Part shown: positions 1 through 6,992 of the stretch, piece by piece
Layout of the letters: every line of letters begins with the position of its first letter
How positions within the stretch are numbered: position 1 is the first letter of the stretch
Virus record (IMG/VR): IMGVR_UViG_2541047751_000016
Location: 1 to 8,522 of that record
Length of the DNA stretch: 8,522 bases
Source of the DNA: a virus
Taxonomy: Duplodnaviria > Heunggongvirae > Uroviricota > Caudoviricetes
Direction: 5' to 3' (one strand)
Position numbers and translations under genes: made by a program
The notes under the pieces: generated by a model
The model's input: only the letters and a program-made list of their open reading frames with translations
The model's database searches: none
What the model was told of the DNA's origin: nothing

Positions 1-693
1 GAATGGCACGCTCTGGAAAAACGAGCACTGGCAGAAGGCTGGACACCATCGCGCTATCTTCTGACGCTATGCAATGAAGAACTCCTGTGGCGCGAGAGTG
101 AAAAACTGCGTCGTTATAAAAAGGAGGCCCGGTTGCCAGTTGCCAAAACGCTAAGCGAATACGACTTCAGTCAGGTGCCGGAACTGAATGGAGCTCAGTT
201 CCGGCAACTCTGTGAAACGACAGACTGGGTTGATGCAGGAGAAAACGTTCTGCTGTTCGGAGCCAGCGGGTTGGGGAAAAGCCATCTGGCGGCAGCGATC
301 GTGGATGGCGTAGTAGGCCAGGGCTACCGGGCCCGGTTCTACAGCGCAGGAGAGTTGTTGCAGGAACTACGTAAAGCCAGAGCGCAGTTGAAACTGAATG
401 AGCTGCTACTGAAACTGGATCGCTACCGGGTGATAGTGGTGGATGATCTTGGCTATGTCAAACGCGACAGCGCCGAAACGGGAGTACTGTTCGAGTTAAT
501 AGCGCATCGCTATGAACGTGGGAGCCTGGTGATAACCAGTAACCATCCGTTCAGCATGTGGGGCAGCATCTTCGTGGATGAGACTATGGCGGTGGCGGCG
601 GCAGACCGGCTGATCCATCACGGATATATGTTCGAACTGAAAGGTGAAAGCTACAGGAAAAAGACAGCGAAGGCAGTAACAAGCGCGACTTGA
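1..693 (+). CDS. istB: IstB-like AAA+ ATP-binding transposition helper of IS21 family (5'-truncated by window edge)
   Basis: Frame 1 is open from base 1 (EWHALEKRALAEGW...). Translation shows LPVAKTLSEYDF, Walker A GASGLGKSHLAAA, Walker B-like VIVVDDLGY, ITSNHPF and C-terminal DRLIHHGYMFELKGESYRKK, matching the IstB/DnaC-like family from memory. Confidence 0.9.
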   Translation, partial: EWHALEKRALAEGWTPSRYLLTLCNEELLWRESEKLRRYKKEARLPVAKTLSEYDFSQVPELNGAQFRQLCETTDWVDAGENVLLFGASGLGKSHLAAAIVDGVVGQGYRARFYSAGELLQELRKARAQLKLNELLLKLDRYRVIVVDDLGYVKRDSAETGVLFELIAHRYERGSLVITSNHPFSMWGSIFVDETMAVAAADRLIHHGYMFELKGESYRKKTAKAVTSAT

Positions 694-776
694 TGTCGCA
701 CTGAAGGGTGCGGCCAGTATAGTTGGCGCGAGTCGGCAAAACTAGTTGACGTCTAATAAGTGGTCATAGCAATACA
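1..776 (+). mobile_element. IS21-family insertion sequence, 3' portion (partial; left part outside window)
   Basis: istB reading frame runs off the left edge and stops at 691-693. Bases 694-776 contain two copies of TAGTTG(G/A)CG (720-728 and 743-751), resembling the multiple terminal repeats of IS21-family ends. Exact right terminus not resolvable; candidate CA termini at 765-766 or 775-776. Confidence 0.7.
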
Positions 777-2244: not shown

Positions 2245-2261
2245 ATTTGAGAGGAATTAAT

Positions 2262-2885
2262 ATGTCATCAATCCGCTTAACTACGAGAATGAAAGAGGAA
2301 ATCGCTCGTAACGCTTTAATTAAGTCTGGGGTTTTCACTGAACTTGAAGAAGTAACAAAGTTAAAGAACCAGCTTGCACTTGACGCCAGAGTTATTGCGT
2401 TTGGCGGTAAAAAGAAAACTGAGGAAGTGGATCAGTTATCATCCAAGTTGGTAGCTATAAGTGAAGAACTTGAAAAGATGGGATGTTCATTTTACTCATA
2501 CGATGTTCGTTCTACTTCAATTTATCTGACTGTATCTGGCAGAAGGGTTGGATGGCATTCATATGGGAAAGACGGCAACGGCGAAGATATATTGCTCCCT
2601 ACTCCGACCAAAGATAAATGCATGTTTGACGCAGAACACGAAATAACAGAAAGGTTTGATGAAATCTGCGCATTACAACAAAAACTTGAAGCAAAGAAAA
2701 AGGATATCGAATCAAATGTATGGGCTGCTTTAAACTCAGTCACAACAGTTAAGCGACTCATTGAAGTTTGGCCTGAAAGCAAAGAATTGCTACCAAAAGA
2801 AGCAGATAAAGCAAGTACAGCACTTCCTGCTTTACGGGTAGAAGATTTGAATAAGATGATTGGACTTCCTTCCGAGGCCGCATAG
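2262..2885 (+). CDS. Hypothetical protein (207 aa), no family recognised
   Basis: GAGAGGA at 2249-2255, ATG at 2262, long open frame. Product MSSIRLTTRMKEEIARNALIKSG...GWHSYGKDGNGEDILLPTPTKDKCMFDAEHE... Occupies the position of lambda ea10 between ral and cIII. Looks more AT-rich than its neighbours by eye. Confidence 0.75.
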   Translation: MSSIRLTTRMKEEIARNALIKSGVFTELEEVTKLKNQLALDARVIAFGGKKKTEEVDQLSSKLVAISEELEKMGCSFYSYDVRSTSIYLTVSGRRVGWHSYGKDGNGEDILLPTPTKDKCMFDAEHEITERFDEICALQQKLEAKKKDIESNVWAALNSVTTVKRLIEVWPESKELLPKEADKASTALPALRVEDLNKMIGLPSEAA

Positions 2886-3109: not shown

Positions 3110-3280
3110 ATGCAACAGTTCGCTATTGCAGGGGCGGCATCGGTTCGCCCTTTCAACCCGATTTTATCGGTACAGCATTCACGAAAAAATATTTTAACCG
3201 GAGCAGACTTTAAACAACCAAGAATGAAAAGTTTGCTCGAAAAGCTTTGGGATATTTTGAAACAACAAGGCCGTCCATGA
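3110..3280 (+). CDS. cIII: cIII-like protein (putative FtsH/HflB protease inhibitor)
   Basis: AAGGAG at 3098-3103, ATG at 3110, 56 aa. N-terminal MQQFAIAG and C-terminal LLEKLWDILKQQGRP resemble lambda CIII (MQYAIAG...WKRLIDILNQPGVP, from memory); position matches lambda gene order. Confidence 0.6.
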   Translation: MQQFAIAGAASVRPFNPILSVQHSRKNILTGADFKQPRMKSLLEKLWDILKQQGRP

Positions 3281-3384
3281 GTTTTACAGATAACTGGTCA
3301 GACGAAGAATTCATTCGTCAGATGAACAAAATGCTCAATCAGCACAAAGAACAGGAGAAAGATGATGATTCTGACTCTGAATGA
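3277..3384 (+). CDS. Small ORF (35 aa) at the kil position; doubtful
   Basis: ATG at 3277 overlaps the cIII-like stop (ATGA). Product MSFTDNWSDEEFIRQMNKMLNQHKEQEKDDDSDSE. Overlaps the next gene by 23 bp in another frame. Supported only by coupling geometry and synteny. Confidence 0.25.
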   Translation: MSFTDNWSDEEFIRQMNKMLNQHKEQEKDDDSDSE

Positions 3385-3673
3385 TAAGCGTGAAATATCG
3401 CAAATAATCGCAAGTTTTACTGATGAAGATTACGAGCGAATCAACAGTGAAGTTGATCGTCTCTGCAAACGTTGCGACCCAATAAGCGAAATGCTTCGCT
3501 CATATAAACCAGATGAACACACTAAGGACGCTATCGACTGGCTGGAAGATGATGACTGTAACTATCAGGAAAAAGCCGCTGAATGGTTCTGGGATGCAAT
3601 AACCGAAAGAGTTAAGGCTGAATATGCCTTCTCAATATTCAAACGCAGACACATTTTTGGAGAAGCTGCATGA
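3362..3673 (+). CDS. Hypothetical protein (103 aa) immediately upstream of recT
   Basis: AGGAG at 3353-3357; ATG at 3362 (or 3365). Stop overlaps the recT start (ATGA at 3670-3673). Acidic product with WLEDDDCNYQEKAAEWFWDAI. Occupies the gam position by synteny, with no similarity to Gam recognised. Confidence 0.65.
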   Translation: MMILTLNDKREISQIIASFTDEDYERINSEVDRLCKRCDPISEMLRSYKPDEHTKDAIDWLEDDDCNYQEKAAEWFWDAITERVKAEYAFSIFKRRHIFGEAA

Positions 3674-4581
3674 GCAATATCGTTGAATTCGTTAAACAGC
3701 AGGAGCAGTTATTCTGCGGAGCATTGACTGAACAGACGGTGACATGGGCTAAGGAAAGCCAGTTTGCAATTCAGTATTTCCAGAAAAATGATTACCTGGC
3801 TAAAACGGCACTGGCAAATCCAACCAGCGCACAGAACGCCATCATCAATGTTGCGGCGATCGGCATCACCTTAAACCCGGCTAGCAAACTGGCTTATCTG
3901 GTTCCGCGCGACGGCATGGTGTGCCTTGATATCAGTTATATGGGATTGCTCCATATTGCAATGGAGTCTGGTGTTATCTCATGGGGTCAGGCAAAACTTG
4001 TTCATGCTAACGATACCTATGAGTCAAACGGGCTTGATAAAGCACCAACCCATAAATACAACGCCTTCGGTGATCGTGGTGATATCGTTGGCGTTTACTG
4101 CACAGTTAAGACGCCAGCAGGTGATTATCTAACGGAAGAGATGAGTCTGGCTGAAATTGAGGCTGTAAGGAAAACAAGCAAGGCGGCATTCAGCGATAAA
4201 GGACCATGGGTAAATCACTGGAATGAGATGGCGCGAAAGACGGTCGTAAAGCGTGCAAGCAAGTATTGGCCTAAGGCATCACGTCTTGATAGTGCTATTC
4301 ACGTACTAAACGAAGAAGAAGGTGTGTGGACTGAACCAGTTATGCCGCACAAATCAGAGGAAGATATCCGCGAAGATGAACGGAAACGCCAGCAGGAAAT
4401 AATGGATAAAGTACAACTTCTTTGCGATGAAATGGCTCAGGCAGAAAACATGGATGATTTGAAGCGATATTTTGCAGAAGCATATCGCCTGACATCTGGA
4501 ATGAAATTGCAGCAGAACGTACAAGCCATTTACATAGAATGCAAAGCGAAACTGGAGGTTGCCAGTGAGCAAACTGTATGA
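3670..4581 (+). CDS. recT: RecT-family single-strand annealing protein (phage recombinase)
   Basis: GGAG at 3658-3661, ATG at 3670, 303 aa. Motif GPWVNHWNEMARKTVVKRASKYWP matches E. coli RecT GPWVTHWEEMAKKTAIRRLFKYLP (from memory). Carries an extra charged C-terminal tail of about 80 aa. Confidence 0.85.
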   Translation: MSNIVEFVKQQEQLFCGALTEQTVTWAKESQFAIQYFQKNDYLAKTALANPTSAQNAIINVAAIGITLNPASKLAYLVPRDGMVCLDISYMGLLHIAMESGVISWGQAKLVHANDTYESNGLDKAPTHKYNAFGDRGDIVGVYCTVKTPAGDYLTEEMSLAEIEAVRKTSKAAFSDKGPWVNHWNEMARKTVVKRASKYWPKASRLDSAIHVLNEEEGVWTEPVMPHKSEEDIREDERKRQQEIMDKVQLLCDEMAQAENMDDLKRYFAEAYRLTSGMKLQQNVQAIYIECKAKLEVASEQTV

Positions 4582-5047
4582 AATAGCCAATGAATACGCA
4601 AAGCTGATGGATTCAGATTTAGAGCCAGAGATGATTGCTGACACAATAGAAGGCATGGAAGGAGAATTTACCGATAAAATAGAGCAACTTCTTTCCGTCA
4701 TTAAAAATGAATCTGGTTATGCCGAACGCCTCAAGGAAGAGGCAAAGTCACTGAATGAGCGAGCCGCAGTAATTCAAAATAAGATTGAGAGCATCAAATC
4801 ATATATAGCGTCATCGCTTGAAATGGTTGGCAAGAAAAATATTCGAGCAGGCATTCACCAGGTAACAATCCGAAAACCGTCAGAAATTGTAGAAATCATC
4901 GACTCAAGCGCCCTTCCTCCTGAATACGTTGAGTTCGAAACGACAATTAAAGCCGACAAACTGGCAATCAAACACCAACTAAAAGCAGGAATAAATATCC
5001 CCGGCGCTCAACTCAAAGTTGGGAAACCTTCACTTCTTATCAAATAA
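4565..5047 (+). CDS. Siphovirus Gp157-family protein
   Basis: GGAGG at 4554-4558, GTG at 4565 (TTG at 4559 also possible); overlaps the recT 3' end. Product (V/M)SKLYEIANEYAKLMDSDLEPEMIADTIEGMEGEF... resembles Gp157-family proteins that commonly sit beside RecT/Erf genes. Confidence 0.7.
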   Translation: MSKLYEIANEYAKLMDSDLEPEMIADTIEGMEGEFTDKIEQLLSVIKNESGYAERLKEEAKSLNERAAVIQNKIESIKSYIASSLEMVGKKNIRAGIHQVTIRKPSEIVEIIDSSALPPEYVEFETTIKADKLAIKHQLKAGINIPGAQLKVGKPSLLIK

Positions 5048-5058
5048 CGGTATCGACT

Positions 5059-5373
5059 ATGAAAAAGACTCCATGGGAGAAATGGGAAGTCGATTTCTTG
5101 CGCGAAGTGGCGGCGACAATGCCAGTTGAAGTTATCGCTGAAAAACTGGAAAGGACTGAAAAAGCAGTAATGGCGAAAGCAACAAGGATTGGAGCTGACA
5201 TTGTTAGCCGACTTCGTGGAAGACGCTGGACAAGAGCCGAAGTATCACTTTTCGGTAAGTTCTCCGCAGAAGAAATAGCAATTGCAACCTGCCGCTCAAT
5301 TTATTCAGTAAGAGCTATGCGATACAAGCTAAAAAAACTCGATGAAGAAAGAGCAGGCATACGAATAAATTAA
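5059..5373 (+). CDS. Hypothetical protein with two tandem ~40-aa repeats (possible Myb/SANT-like helix-turn-helix DNA-binding protein)
   Basis: ATG at 5059. Internal repeat PWEKWEVDFLREVAATMPVEVIAEKLERTEKAVMAKATRIG versus RRWTRAEVSLFGKFSAEEIAIATCRSIYSVRAMRYKL. Basic, HTH-like composition. Confidence 0.65.
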   Translation: MKKTPWEKWEVDFLREVAATMPVEVIAEKLERTEKAVMAKATRIGADIVSRLRGRRWTRAEVSLFGKFSAEEIAIATCRSIYSVRAMRYKLKKLDEERAGIRIN

Positions 5374-5389
5374 CATGGAGTAATTAACA

Positions 5390-5671
5390 ATGAAGCTGAA
5401 CATCGACCTCGGAAAATACGTTATTACTGGAACAAAACACGACCTGATTCTTAATGAAAGAGGAATTATCAAAGAAGGCGAGAATGCAGGGAAAGAAACA
5501 CTAAGCCGTATCGGTTATTACAGCAAGTTTGAGCATCTGGTTAAAGAGTTATGCAACCGTGAAATTCTGTTATCTCAGGCGCAGACGCTACAGGATATTC
5601 AGCAGCATATCGAAACTTTAGGTGTGTCACTTAGCATGGCTATTGACCAGTTCGTTGAGAGTAAATCATGA
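5390..5671 (+). CDS. Hypothetical protein (93 aa)
   Basis: GGAG at 5377-5380, ATG at 5390. Stop overlaps the start of the next small ORF (ATGA at 5668-5671). Confidence 0.6.
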
Positions 5672-5832
5672 GAGGACTTGCATACAATCCCGGCATCCTT
5701 CCGGCAGAAATGATTATTCGCCAACGCGTAAAGCCAATGCCATCGAGAGAGGAATTGCTTAAGAGAAATTCTTTTCCTTCAGTGAATCAAAACAAATATC
5801 TGAATGCGATGTGGCGGAGTGGGAAGAAATGA
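5668..5832 (+). CDS. Hypothetical small protein (54 aa), not in the supplied ORF track
   Basis: ATG at 5668 overlaps the upstream stop (ATGA); its own stop overlaps the ATG at 5829 of the next gene (ATGA). Coupled at both ends. Product [54 protein letters not shown]. Confidence 0.4.
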
Positions 5833-6311: not shown

Positions 6312-6793
6312 GCAAGATTGATTATCAGGCACTGCGTGAGGCGGCAGAACGTGCAATTACGGCAATGGAACGCCTGTTAATGTTGCCAGTTGATGATGAT
6401 CTGATAAGCGAACAGGAACTTAAAGATTACGGTGTGGATATTGATGCGCTCAACGCCTTCAAATTTCTGGCCGGACCAGAAACCGTGCTGGCGCTGCTGG
6501 ATGAACGGGAAAGAAACCAGCAATACATCAAATCCCGCGACCAGGAGAACGAGGAAATTGCGCTAACGGTAGGGAAGCTGCGCGTTGAGCTTGAAGCAGA
6601 AAAACAGCGGGCAAAAGTTCTATTTATGGAAAATGCTCGGCTTAAGTCAGGCATAGCCGGTCTGATACACCTCGGTATTCGATATGCAGATGTTGAGGTC
6701 ATGAAAATTGCTGGAGATGCCCAGCTTTCTACCCCATGCACTGACAGCATCATAAACAGCATTGCAACAGGCATTCGCATCAAAGGAGAGTGA
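6308..6793 (+). CDS. Ead/Ea22-like family protein (paralog 2)
   Basis: AGGAGG at 6296-6301, GTG at 6308 overlapping the upstream stop (GTGA). N-terminus [16 protein letters not shown]... resembles proteins annotated Ead/Ea22-like in enterobacterial prophages (from memory); coiled-coil segment LTVGKLRVELEAEKQRAKVLFMENARLK. Confidence 0.65.
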   Translation: MSKIDYQALREAAERAITAMERLLMLPVDDDLISEQELKDYGVDIDALNAFKFLAGPETVLALLDERERNQQYIKSRDQENEEIALTVGKLRVELEAEKQRAKVLFMENARLKSGIAGLIHLGIRYADVEVMKIAGDAQLSTPCTDSIINSIATGIRIKGE

Positions 6794-6794
6794 T

Positions 6795-6992
6795 ATGGAT
6801 AAAAACACCACTGCTTACTGGAATCTGTCACTTGATACCGAATGCCCAAAATGCGGTCACAATTTCGATCTGCTTTGTGATGCTGATTTCTGGGAGTTTT
6901 CTGGAGCTAAACAGGCATGTGAAGAAATAAAAGGTTACGAAACATGCTGTCCAGAATGTAACCATGAATTTAAAACAGATTTCGTGTATTGA
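6795..6992 (+). CDS. Small zinc-ribbon protein (two CxxC knuckles)
   Basis: AGGAG at 6784-6788, ATG at 6795, 65 aa. Contains CPKCGHNF and CPECNHEF, an internally duplicated knuckle typical of zinc-ribbon/rubredoxin-like folds. Confidence 0.7.
   Translation: MDKNTTAYWNLSLDTECPKCGHNFDLLCDADFWEFSGAKQACEEIKGYETCCPECNHEFKTDFVY

What the first reader, a model, noticed from the sequence alone, without database searches (positions are those of the whole stretch)
5059..5373. Small protein built from two tandem HTH-like repeats
The 104-aa product contains an internal duplication of about 40 aa with conserved W, EV and EIA positions and basic residues, reminiscent of Myb/SANT-type or sigma-region-4-like DNA-binding repeats. 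A tandem-repeat DNA binder in the delayed-early region could be a regulator of host or phage genes.
Basis: seen in the sequence. Interest (0 to 1): 0.45.

Follow-up and report, generated by a model that had tools for sequence, protein, structure and literature searches.

The report
Two-unit Myb-like phage DNA-binding protein
This small prophage gene really does encode two tandem Myb-like helix-turn-helix units, an uncharacterised member of a common phage DNA-binding family, and it always sits just after the phage's recombination genes, in the slot that Abc1 occupies in phage P22.

Summary
Window 5059-5373 (+) is a real 104-aa gene (dN/dS 0.07 against Salmonella phage SEN22). It lies in the N-antiterminated early-left operon of a lambdoid prophage, directly after RecT and a Gp157/MuGam-like gene.

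The internal repeat fails a single-sequence self-alignment (p 0.15-0.6). It is clear at family level:
- N-half against C-half profiles give P=8e-7, and 0 of 200 column shuffles reach that score.
- AlphaFold2 predicts two three-helix bundles.
- 150-aa relatives carry a third unit.
- Many 300-900-aa proteins carry arrays of 4-10 such units.

The two units belong to two diverged subtypes, so the duplication is ancient. A profile of the long subtype matches solved c-Myb/B-Myb repeats (E about 5e-6) and, more weakly, GcrA and NarL.

The protein matches PHROG 11492 and PHROG 323 ("transcriptional regulator, D5-like"). P22 Abc1 also matches PHROG 323, and a collinear remote match to Abc1 has P=2e-6.

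In eight of nine other gene contexts that could be read, relatives lie immediately downstream of a recombination module. These modules are of four unrelated types.

Most likely this is a two-HTH dsDNA-binding accessory or regulatory protein coupled to the Rec module, like Abc1. DNA binding and function remain untested. It is an ordinary fold with a mildly interesting context.

The parts
5059..5373 (+). Complete ORF: 104 aa, 12.1 kDa, pI 10.0. A two-unit Myb-like HTH protein.
   Evidence: ORF list and sequence. dN/dS 0.07 against SEN22. PHROG 11492 E=4.6e-23 and PHROG 323 E=2.8e-20.
5068..5196 (+). Unit 1 (residues 4-46), the long 'type A' Myb-like unit: W6-x3-E10-x2-F13L14 ... I26-A27-E-K-L-E-R32-T ... 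R43-I-G. Predicted helices are 8-17, 23-30 and 34-43.
   Evidence: AF2 model. N-half vs type-A unit profile Prob 99.5% (partly circular), and vs type-B profile P=3.9e-10. NarL C-terminal HTH E=0.0023 for residues 8-68.
5197..5220 (+). Basic inter-unit linker (residues 47-54, DIVSRLRG). This is the least confident part of the model outside the C-terminal tail.
   Evidence: Block pLDDT falls to 74-81 here. pTM of 0.49 indicates an undefined relative orientation of the two units.
5221..5352 (+). Unit 2 (residues 55-98), the short 'type B' Myb-like unit, basic (pI 10.6): R-W57-T-x2-E61-V-x-L64-F-G ... E-E-I73-A74 ... T77-x-R79-S ... S-V84-R-x-M-R88. Predicted helices are 59-66, 70-77 and 81-98.
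   Evidence: AF2 model. C-half vs type-A units P=5.3e-12 and vs type-B Prob 99.6%. C-half vs the third unit of 150-aa relatives P=5.6e-18. Charge figures.
5353..5370 (+). Short C-terminal tail (residues 99-104), low confidence and poorly conserved.
   Evidence: pLDDT 59 in the last block. The tail is variable or absent in homologues.
3670..4581 (+). RecT-family single-strand annealing protein, part of the upstream Rec module.
   Evidence: Pfam RecT 3.3e-32 and PHROG 148 6.5e-92.
4559..5047 (+). Siphovirus Gp157 family protein, called 'Mu Gam-like end protection' by PHROGs. It is the gene immediately upstream and ends 12 nt before the target's ATG.
   Evidence: Pfam Sipho_Gp157 2.1e-37 and PHROG 253 1.1e-53. 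It is the upstream neighbour in 80 of 80 IMG/VR loci carrying the 99-100% identical protein.
5390..5671 (+). Downstream DUF5405 gene. It is a variable insertion, present in 35 of 80 related loci. In the other 45 the target is followed directly by the DUF2737-type ORF that here lies at 5668-5832.
   Evidence: Pfam DUF5405 5e-6. Neighbour clustering. ORF list.

Best explanation
The gene encodes a 12-kDa basic protein made of two tandem tri-helical, Myb-like helix-turn-helix units joined by a short basic linker. It is transcribed from pL as part of the N-antiterminated delayed-early operon, as the last gene following the recombination (Rec) module.

The most likely mechanism is inferred, not shown. 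Each unit would place its third helix in the major groove, so the monomer reads a short asymmetric dsDNA site in a bipartite way, as c-Myb R2R3 does. The protein would then act as an Abc1-like accessory or regulatory factor working alongside the phage recombination and anti-RecBCD functions. P22 Abc1 is a remote two-HTH relative in the same slot, and it aids but is not essential for P22 recombination.

Shown here: the gene is real and under purifying selection, it has two homologous HTH units, it belongs to a large repeat family, and it is adjacent to Rec modules. Inferred: DNA binding, bipartite recognition, and the link to recombination.
For: Gene reality: dN/dS 0.07, and 299 E. coli genomes carry it.

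Two homologous units:
- hhalign P=8.2e-7 with 0 of 200 shuffles reaching the observed score.
- Cross-profile P=3.9e-10 and 5.3e-12.
- Type A against type B unit profiles give Prob 98.2% and P=4.4e-14, with the same 4-residue indel.
- The AF2 model shows two three-helix bundles at pLDDT 84.7.

Modular unit:
- Relatives of 144-154 aa have a third unit.
- The exhaustive search found 3282 proteins at E<1e-3, many with 4-10 matched stretches.

DNA-binding kinship:
- The type A unit profile hits solved c-Myb/B-Myb at E 5e-6 to 3e-5, 2lvs (described as a CRISPR repeat binding protein) at 6e-5, the GcrA DNA-binding domain at 6e-3 and NarL at 0.027.
- All top Foldseek PDB hits are HTH DNA binders.
- Units are fused to a helicase domain (P0053), and in other phages they lie under genes annotated as methyltransferases, HNH nucleases and a mismatch endonuclease.
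- T5 D5 is annotated in RefSeq as a DNA-binding protein needed for replication and late transcription. It contains degenerate copies of the unit and gives PHROG 323 its name.

Abc1 link:
- P22 Abc1 hits PHROG 323 at 1.3e-23.
- Family against Abc1 family gives a collinear 77-column hhalign match, Prob 89.6% and P=1.9e-6.
- The Abc1 C-terminal unit against type A gives P=2.8e-9.

Rec-module adjacency across unrelated recombinase types:
- RecT+Gp157: window, 80 of 80 IMG/VR loci, L091, L099.
- ExoVIII/DUF3799 + PHROG 11517.
- Gam + 167 aa + YqaJ.
- AAA_24, which I take to be the Sak4 family.
- Stop and start codons often overlap.

There is no promoter or terminator of its own on the + strand.
Against: - No experiment addresses this protein.
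- The window protein reaches no curated Pfam threshold. Its only hit is HTH_12, 20.7 bits against a cutoff of 21.4.
- BLASTP against Abc1 finds nothing. The hhalign match is below 90% probability and joins generic HTH units. The unit order also differs: Abc1 is a W-less HTH followed by a type A unit, whereas this protein is type A followed by type B.
- No Abc2 homologue is present in the window.
- Whole-model Foldseek against the PDB gives nothing better than E=0.28.
- Unit 1 is nearly neutral (pI 8.1). As general knowledge, this is also seen in protein-binding SANT domains.
- Adjacency to the Rec module could simply reflect the conserved gene order of lambdoid early-left operons.
- One relative (L092) lies next to methyltransferases with only a remnant of a Rec-module gene.
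Confidence: 0.45

Rival explanations
1. It is a stand-alone sequence-specific transcription regulator, 'D5-like'. It would switch phage, host or satellite-phage genes, and its position after the Rec module would be incidental operon order.
For: - It hits PHROG 323, 'transcriptional regulator, D5-like', at E=2.8e-20.
- T5 D5 is annotated as required for late transcription and for shutoff.
- P22 Abc1 expression triggers cell death through a P4 satellite prophage, and the authors propose interference with P4 transcriptional regulation (bioRxiv 10.1101/2023.04.06.535777).
- The nearest solved relatives, Myb, GcrA and NarL, are all transcription factors.
Against: - No operator-like repeats or own promoter were seen near the gene.
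- The gene keeps its place directly after four unrelated Rec-module types, often with overlapping stop and start codons, while its downstream neighbours vary.
- PHROG names are annotations, not tests.
Confidence: 0.3
2. It is a protein-binding adaptor rather than a DNA binder. It could be a SANT-like or sigma-region-4-like mimic that docks on a partner such as RNA polymerase, RecBCD, RecT or Gp157 and modulates it.
For: - Relatives and Abc1 give Sigma70_r4_2 hits, and RefSeq names Abc1 homologues 'sigma-70 family RNA polymerase sigma factor'.
- Unit 1 is almost neutral, with an acidic first helix.
- Abc1 was historically named anti-RecBCD protein 1, and whether it binds RecBCD has never been tested (PMC9836394).
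Against: - Overall pI is 10.0 and unit 2 has pI 10.6.
- The unit recurs fused to a helicase domain and under genes annotated as methyltransferases and nucleases, as expected for a DNA-targeting module.
- AP-MS for Abc1 showed no clear partner pattern (PMC12373910).
- No sigma regions 2 or 3 are present, and the window protein has no Pfam sigma-4 hit.
Confidence: 0.15
3. There is no real repeat. The shared W, EV and IA residues would be chance matches in a small helical protein, or the ORF would not be a gene.
For: Single-sequence self-alignment is not significant, and there is no DNA-level repeat.
Against: - Profile-profile P=8.2e-7, with 0 of 200 shuffles reaching the observed score.
- Cross-profile matches of 1e-10 to 1e-12.
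- Relatives with a third unit, and arrays of units in hundreds of proteins.
- AF2 predicts two equivalent bundles.
- dN/dS is 0.07.
Confidence: 0.02

Closest known systems
P22 Abc1 ('anti-RecBCD protein 1', gp35)
   Same: - Small (94 aa), basic (pI 10.3) protein with two HTH units.
- Encoded in the pL operon immediately after the single-strand annealing gene.
- Hits the same PHROG 323 (1.3e-23 against 2.8e-20).
- Collinear hhalign match with P=1.9e-6, and its C-terminal W-containing unit matches the type A unit profile with P=2.8e-9.
- One phage record (Gally) already labels the identical protein 'similar to P22gp35_Abc1'.
   Different: - No BLASTP similarity.
- Abc1's first unit lacks the W-x3-E helix, and the unit types come in a different order.
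- Abc1 is followed by abc2, and no Abc2 homologue is in this window.
- Abc1 follows Erf, whereas this gene follows RecT+Gp157.
- Abc1's own molecular function is unknown (PMC9836394, PMC12315714).
Phage T5 D5 protein (namesake of PHROG 323, 'transcriptional regulator, D5-like')
   Same: It is built from the same class of HTH units. In a two-sequence search, the type A profile finds three stretches in D5, at residues 73-100, 140-174 and 207-235. D5 is annotated as a DNA-binding protein.
   Different: D5 is 255 aa with several degenerate units and sits in a lytic phage's replication gene cluster. The window protein fits PHROG 11492 slightly better than PHROG 323. No orthology is implied.
c-Myb / B-Myb R2R3 DNA-binding repeats (Pfam PF00249, PF13921)
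   Same: - Tandem three-helix HTH units of about 50 aa, starting W-[ST]-x2-E-[ED] and carrying I-A-x2-L-x-G-R-[ST] before the recognition helix.
- The type A unit profile hits 1h8a, 1a5j, 1h88 and 1mse at E 5e-6 to 3e-5.
- Multi-unit relatives pass Pfam Myb thresholds, for example P0053 at 2e-41 with 7 stretches.
   Different: - The window protein itself has no Pfam Myb hit even at E<=10.
- Only the first of the three canonical tryptophans is conserved.
- It is a prokaryotic virus protein with no other domains.
GcrA N-terminal DNA-binding domain, and LuxR/NarL and sigma-70 region 4 HTHs
   Same: - The helix 2-turn-helix 3 motif '(E)IA..L.R[ST]..[AS][VI]...' and the 'R-[IL]-G' unit ending are shared.
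- PDB profile hits: NarL E=0.0023 with the family profile, and GcrA 5yiu E=0.006 with type A.
- Sub-threshold Sigma70_r4_2 hits occur in relatives, and P0155 passes the Pfam GcrA cutoff.
   Different: - It lacks a GcrA C-terminal domain, a receiver domain, and sigma regions 2 and 3.
- It has three helices per unit, not four.
- The matches are weaker than those to Myb.

Membership tests
Myb/SANT-like HTH repeat (Pfam PF00249 / PF13921) | Unit of about 45-50 aa folding as a three-helix bundle, with helices 2 and 3 forming an HTH | tested here: met
   AF2 model with pLDDT 84.7: H8-17/H23-30/H34-43 and H59-66/H70-77/H81-98.
Myb/SANT-like HTH repeat (Pfam PF00249 / PF13921) | The protein scores above the Pfam gathering threshold | tested here: not met
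   No PF00249 or PF13921 hit for the window protein at E<=10. The threshold is met only by multi-unit relatives, for example P0053 at 140 bits and P0155 at 37 bits.
Myb/SANT-like HTH repeat (Pfam PF00249 / PF13921) | Three regularly spaced tryptophans or aromatics forming the core of each repeat (definition from general knowledge of Myb repeats) | tested here: not met
   Only the first W is conserved (W6, W57). The later positions are aliphatic (I26/L30, I73) in the family alignment.
Myb/SANT-like HTH repeat (Pfam PF00249 / PF13921) | Profile-level sequence similarity to solved Myb repeats | tested here: met
   The type A unit profile matches c-Myb/B-Myb chains at E 4.7e-6 to 3.4e-5. The window N-half matches type A at Prob 99.5% and the C-half matches type A with P=5.3e-12. 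The link is transitive, not direct.
Myb/SANT-like HTH repeat (Pfam PF00249 / PF13921) | Binds DNA through the third helix | not testable with these tools
   Requires gel shift, a structure, or ChIP.
PHROG 11492 / PHROG 323 ('transcriptional regulator, D5-like') | Significant match to the family HMM | tested here: met
   PHROG 11492 E=4.6e-23 (residues 4-93) and PHROG 323 E=2.8e-20 (residues 2-99, profile positions 145-269 of 319).
P22 Abc1 family | Detectable sequence homology to Abc1 | tested here: inconclusive
   BLASTP finds nothing at E<=100. hhalign of family against family gives Prob 89.6%, P=1.9e-6 over 77 collinear columns. Both proteins hit PHROG 323.
P22 Abc1 family | Gene located in the pL operon directly after the recombinase genes | tested here: met
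   The window order is RecT, Gp157, target. P22 has erf, abc1, abc2.
P22 Abc1 family | Paired with an adjacent abc2 (RecC-binding anti-RecBCD) gene | tested here: not met
   tblastn of P22 Abc2 against the window gives no hit better than E=0.87.
P22 Abc1 family | Contributes to phage recombination or RecBCD modulation | not testable with these tools
   Needs phage genetics. Even for Abc1 itself the molecular role is unknown.
Sigma-70 region 4 / LuxR-GerE HTH | Pfam Sigma70_r4 / r4_2 / GerE hit above threshold | tested here: not met
   No such hit for the window protein. Relatives are sub-threshold: P0030 scores 21.2 bits against a cutoff of 25.7. Family profile against NarL gives E=0.0023.
Sigma-70 region 4 / LuxR-GerE HTH | Accompanying sigma regions 2 and 3, or a receiver or ligand domain | tested here: not met
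   The 104 aa are fully accounted for by two HTH units.

The most novel reading that the evidence does not exclude
This family and P22 Abc1 may together form a previously unrecognised, widely conserved terminal component of lambdoid recombination modules. It would be a two-HTH DNA-binding factor retained next to RecT, ExoVIII-type, YqaJ/Gam, Sak4-type and Erf systems alike. It would either target or time the recombination and anti-RecBCD machinery on DNA, or act as a phage signal that satellites and abortive systems sense, as reported for Abc1 and P4.
Probability: 0.25. Interest if true: 0.55.

Novelty: new member of a known kind. Interest (0 to 1): 0.3.

Why it matters
The fold is ordinary, and the protein is already catalogued in PHROGs. 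RefSeq phage records label it "transcriptional regulator, D5-like".

What is useful to a phage biologist is the context. P22 Abc1 has had no assigned fold family or molecular role since 1987. It turns out to be a remote member of a large Myb-like HTH repeat family. Clearer relatives of that family, including this gene, occupy the same slot after four other, unrelated types of recombination module. That gives a testable handle on what Abc1-type proteins do: DNA binding, an effect on recombination, and triggering of satellite or abortive systems.

If the adjacency proves incidental, this is just one more small phage HTH protein.

Tried and rejected
- **Single-sequence self-alignment.** BLOSUM62 and BLOSUM45, with best-split and fixed-register variants, were all non-significant. 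The repeat could only be shown with profiles.
- **Direct family hits.** Pfam and NCBIfam gave only sub-threshold or spurious hits for the window protein: HTH_12, DUF123, SecA2, QrcB.
- **BLASTP against Abc1.** Nothing found.
- **Whole-model Foldseek against the PDB.** No hit better than E=0.28, probably because the two small bundles have no fixed orientation.
- **Short-type unit profile against the PDB.** Nothing found.
- **The search for related loci.** The diverse alignment and P0098 and P0125 returned nothing usable.
- **Third homologue search.** It was swamped by near-identical three-unit Citrobacter proteins.
- **Silas et al. accessory-gene screens.** A search of the supplements for this protein found no sequences.
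- **Literature searches.** Searches for 'D5-like' and for Myb-like prophage HTHs gave nothing relevant.
- **Operator-like repeats or own promoter/terminator around the gene.** Nothing above expectation.
- **Readings considered and rejected.** Recent tandem duplication is excluded, because there is no nucleotide similarity between the halves and the two units are different subtypes. A sigma factor is excluded because regions 2 and 3 are absent. An Abc1 orthologue is excluded by the different unit order and the absence of abc2.

Full report
**1. What is at the coordinates.**

Window 5059-5373 (+) is an ATG-to-TAA ORF of 104 aa. The window is the early-left (pL) operon of a lambdoid prophage, read in the direction of transcription. 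Its genes, in order, are:
- an IS21-type IstB fragment (133-693)
- N (1647-1946)
- Ral (2025-2225)
- an Nmad5-domain protein (2247-2885)
- a PHROG 3486 protein (3362-3673)
- RecT (3670-4581)
- a Siphovirus-Gp157 / 'Mu Gam-like' protein (4559-5047)
- the target
- DUF5405 (5390-5671)
- a DUF2737-type ORF (5668-5832)
- Ea22-like genes
- an excisionase-like ORF at the window's end

The region is 95-98% identical to phages HK140, vB_EcoP-611R6, Gally, Kapi1 and mEpX1. No sigma-70 promoter or terminator of its own lies on the + strand.

**2. It is a real gene.**

- The protein is 98-100% identical in 12 phage records, with two further SEN22 records at 91%.
- It is present in 299 of 5426 complete E. 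coli genomes, always chromosomal and always labelled 'hypothetical protein'.
- Against the 85%-identical copy in Salmonella phage SEN22, dS is 0.84 and dN is 0.058, so dN/dS is 0.07.

**3. The repeat.**

On the single sequence the repeat is not above chance:
- The best-split BLOSUM62 local score is 21, against a shuffle mean of 22.8.
- The fixed split gives p=0.53, and BLOSUM45 gives p=0.15.
- The two halves share no nucleotide similarity.

With homologues the picture changes. I built a 19-sequence family alignment with 34-90% identity to the query. Splitting it into N- and C-halves and comparing them with hhalign gave Prob 91.6% and P=8.2e-7 over 37 columns. Two hundred column shuffles of the C-half reached at most 15.5 against the observed 30.3, and the reversed control scored 7.6.

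AlphaFold2 on this alignment gave mean pLDDT 84.7. It predicts two equivalent three-helix bundles, H8-17/H23-30/H34-43 and H59-66/H70-77/H81-98. The pTM of 0.49 means their mutual orientation is undefined.

**4. The unit is a module.**

Enterobacterial relatives of 144-154 aa carry a third copy. The C-half matches that third unit with P=5.6e-18.

An exhaustive HMM search of 1.84 billion representatives found 3282 proteins at E<1e-3. Many are 300-900 aa long with 4-10 separately matched stretches.

Searching those proteins with separate N-half and C-half HMMs shows two kinds of array:
- 'Type A' (long unit): W..E..FL..NY..M...EIA..L.R[ST]..[SA]V...A..LG[LI]
- 'Type B' (short unit): W..E..LLG...D.E[VI]A...GR[ST]..[SA]V..KR..L.I

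Of the 333 C-type matches, 125 overlap an N-type match. Profiles of 42 units of each type align with Prob 98.2% and P=4.4e-14, showing the same 4-residue indel.

The informative cross-comparisons are N-half against type B (P=3.9e-10) and C-half against type A (P=5.3e-12). The same-type comparisons are partly circular, because the units were selected with those HMMs.

The window protein is thus a type A unit followed by a type B unit. This is an ancient pairing of diverged subtypes, not a recent tandem duplication.

**5. What the unit is.**

The window protein reaches no curated Pfam threshold. Its best hit is HTH_12, at 20.7 bits against a cutoff of 21.4. NCBIfam gave nothing meaningful.

The evidence for a Myb-like identity comes from relatives and profiles:
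- Multi-unit relatives pass Pfam Myb_DNA-binding (P0053: 2e-41, 7 stretches), Myb_DNA-bind_6 and Sigma70_r4_2. P0155 also passes GcrA.
- The type A unit profile hits solved c-Myb and B-Myb repeats at E 4.7e-6 to 3.4e-5.
- The same profile hits 2lvs (described as a CRISPR repeat binding protein) at 5.9e-5, the GcrA DNA-binding domain at 6e-3 and NarL at 0.027.
- The whole-family profile hits the NarL C-terminal HTH at E=0.0023.

Whole-model Foldseek against the PDB found nothing better than E=0.28, though every top hit is an HTH DNA binder: 2lvs, the Pax6 paired domain, RcsB, and Tc3/Mos1. Against BFVD it found many uncharacterised phage proteins of about 100 aa at E 2e-4 to 1e-3.

Units also occur fused to a helicase domain. 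In other phages they lie under genes annotated as DNA methyltransferases, HNH nucleases and a mismatch endonuclease. That is the usual signature of a DNA-targeting module.

Of the canonical Myb features, only the first tryptophan of each unit is conserved.

**6. Database names and closest characterised phage proteins.**

The protein hits PHROG 11492 (unknown function, 4.6e-23) and PHROG 323 ('transcriptional regulator, D5-like', 2.8e-20). RefSeq copies of mEpX1, HK140 and SEN22 carry the D5-like label.

T5 D5 is annotated as a DNA-binding protein required for replication and late transcription. It contains three degenerate copies of the unit.

The Gally record labels the identical protein 'Anti-RecBCD protein 1, similar to P22gp35_Abc1'. 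The evidence on the Abc1 link is mixed:
- BLASTP between the two proteins finds nothing.
- P22 Abc1 also hits PHROG 323, at 1.3e-23.
- The two family profiles align collinearly over 77 columns, with Prob 89.6% and P=1.9e-6.
- Abc1's C-terminal W-containing unit matches type A with P=2.8e-9.

Abc1 is thus a remote relative with a related but not identical build: a W-less HTH followed by a type A unit. No Abc2 homologue is in the window.

**7. Context.**

The most consistent feature beyond the fold is position.
- All 80 IMG/VR loci encoding the 99-100% identical protein have Gp157 directly upstream. Downstream there is either DUF2737 (45 loci) or an inserted DUF5405 gene (35 loci).
- A 91%-identical allele in SEN22 follows a different module, ExoVIII/DUF3799 plus a PHROG 11517 protein.

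More distant relatives (34-51% identity) sit as follows:

| Upstream genes | Relatives |
|---|---|
| DUF3799 + 189/194-aa protein | P0044, P0125 |
| RecT + Gp157 | P0138; L091, which has two tandem paralogues |
| Gam + 167-aa protein + YqaJ | P0030, P0187 |
| AAA_24 protein (which I take to be the Sak4 family) + 104-aa protein | P0164 |
| Remnant of the PHROG 11517 gene; followed by two methyltransferases | P0098 |

Two further look-ups (P0086, P0106) returned contigs too short to identify the neighbours. Stop and start codons frequently overlap.

P22 has erf, abc1, abc2. The literature describes Abc1 as aiding but not being essential for P22 recombination, with unknown molecular function (PMC12315714; PMC9836394). 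Abc1 expression triggers cell death through a P4 satellite prophage and gives a broad host-sensitising phenotype. The authors noted its HTH and proposed transcriptional interference (bioRxiv 10.1101/2023.04.06.535777; PMC12373910).

**8. Interpretation.**

Shown here:
- A real, constrained gene.
- Two homologous tri-helical HTH units of the Myb-like kind.
- Membership of a very large modular repeat family.
- Constant placement after diverse Rec modules.

Inferred:
- dsDNA binding by the two recognition helices in a bipartite, Myb R2R3-like manner.
- An Abc1-like accessory or regulatory role tied to the Rec module.

The main rival is a plain D5-like transcription regulator whose position is incidental. 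A second rival is a non-DNA-binding adaptor, suggested by the sigma-4-like motif and the nearly neutral unit 1. The 'no real repeat' reading is refuted.

**9. Verdict.**

The structural interpretation is supported. The functional guess is plausible and untested. This is a new, uncharacterised member of a known kind of protein. Interest is modest, and it rises somewhat if the Rec-module and Abc1 connection proves functional.

Noticed in passing
window 133-693 (+); window 1-760: There is a truncated IS21-family IstB ATPase ORF, matching Pfam IstB_IS21 positions 58-235 of 238. It lies upstream of N, in a stretch that does not match HK140-type phages; similarity to them starts at about 760. This suggests an IS element inserted near the immunity/pL region of this prophage.
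   Followed up: partly
window 2247-2885 (+): A 212-aa protein with a full-length Nmad5 domain ('nucleotide modification associated domain 5', Pfam 7.9e-72) sits between ral and the Rec module in the early-left operon. PHROGs gives it no known function.
   Followed up: no
L091 3202-3501 and 3498-3779: One IMG/VR phage contig carries two tandem, overlapping paralogues of the two-unit protein (99 and 93 aa) directly after RecT and Gp157. This is a gene-level duplication on top of the domain-level repeat. L102 looks similar.
   Followed up: partly
L008 5001-6007; L092 4001-5952: In two relatives the gene is followed directly by a Dam-type methyltransferase, and in L092 also by a C5 DNA methylase. 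In mycobacteriophages the same units lie under genes annotated as DNA methylases or HNH endonucleases. Given the unit's weak similarity to the GcrA DNA-binding domain, a link to methylation is conceivable. It was not tested.
   Followed up: no
P0053, P0059, P0060, P0082, P0123 (one search hits): Long proteins consist almost entirely of 5-10 tandem copies of the unit. P0053 has an N-terminal ResIII/Helicase_C domain followed by nine near-identical type A units. P0060 and P0082 are arrays of type B units in arginine/alanine-rich proteins. The short type B unit matched no solved structure.
   Followed up: partly
window 3247-3384 (+): A 45-aa, very acidic ORF lies just upstream of the Rec module. 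It shows a marginal tblastn similarity to P22 Arf, the small acidic Erf cofactor (E=0.096 in a window-only search, motif SDEEFI). This may be chance.
   Followed up: no
window 5390-5671 vs 5668-5832: The DUF5405 gene (PHROG 154) behaves as a single-gene insertion between the target and the DUF2737-type ORF. It is present in 35 of 80 otherwise near-identical loci and absent in 45.
   Followed up: partly
L009 2932-3501; L004 4432-5001; L095 3414-3998; L092 3735-4001: A conserved protein of about 190 aa with unknown function (PHROG 11517) always lies between the ExoVIII/DUF3799 nuclease and the two-HTH gene. By position it may be an unrecognised single-strand annealing protein.
   Followed up: no
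window 6762-6992 (+): A 76-aa ORF with two CxxC pairs (CPKCGH ... CPECNH) has a weak sub-threshold hit to the Rad50 zinc hook. It is probably a small zinc-ribbon protein in the ea region.
   Followed up: no
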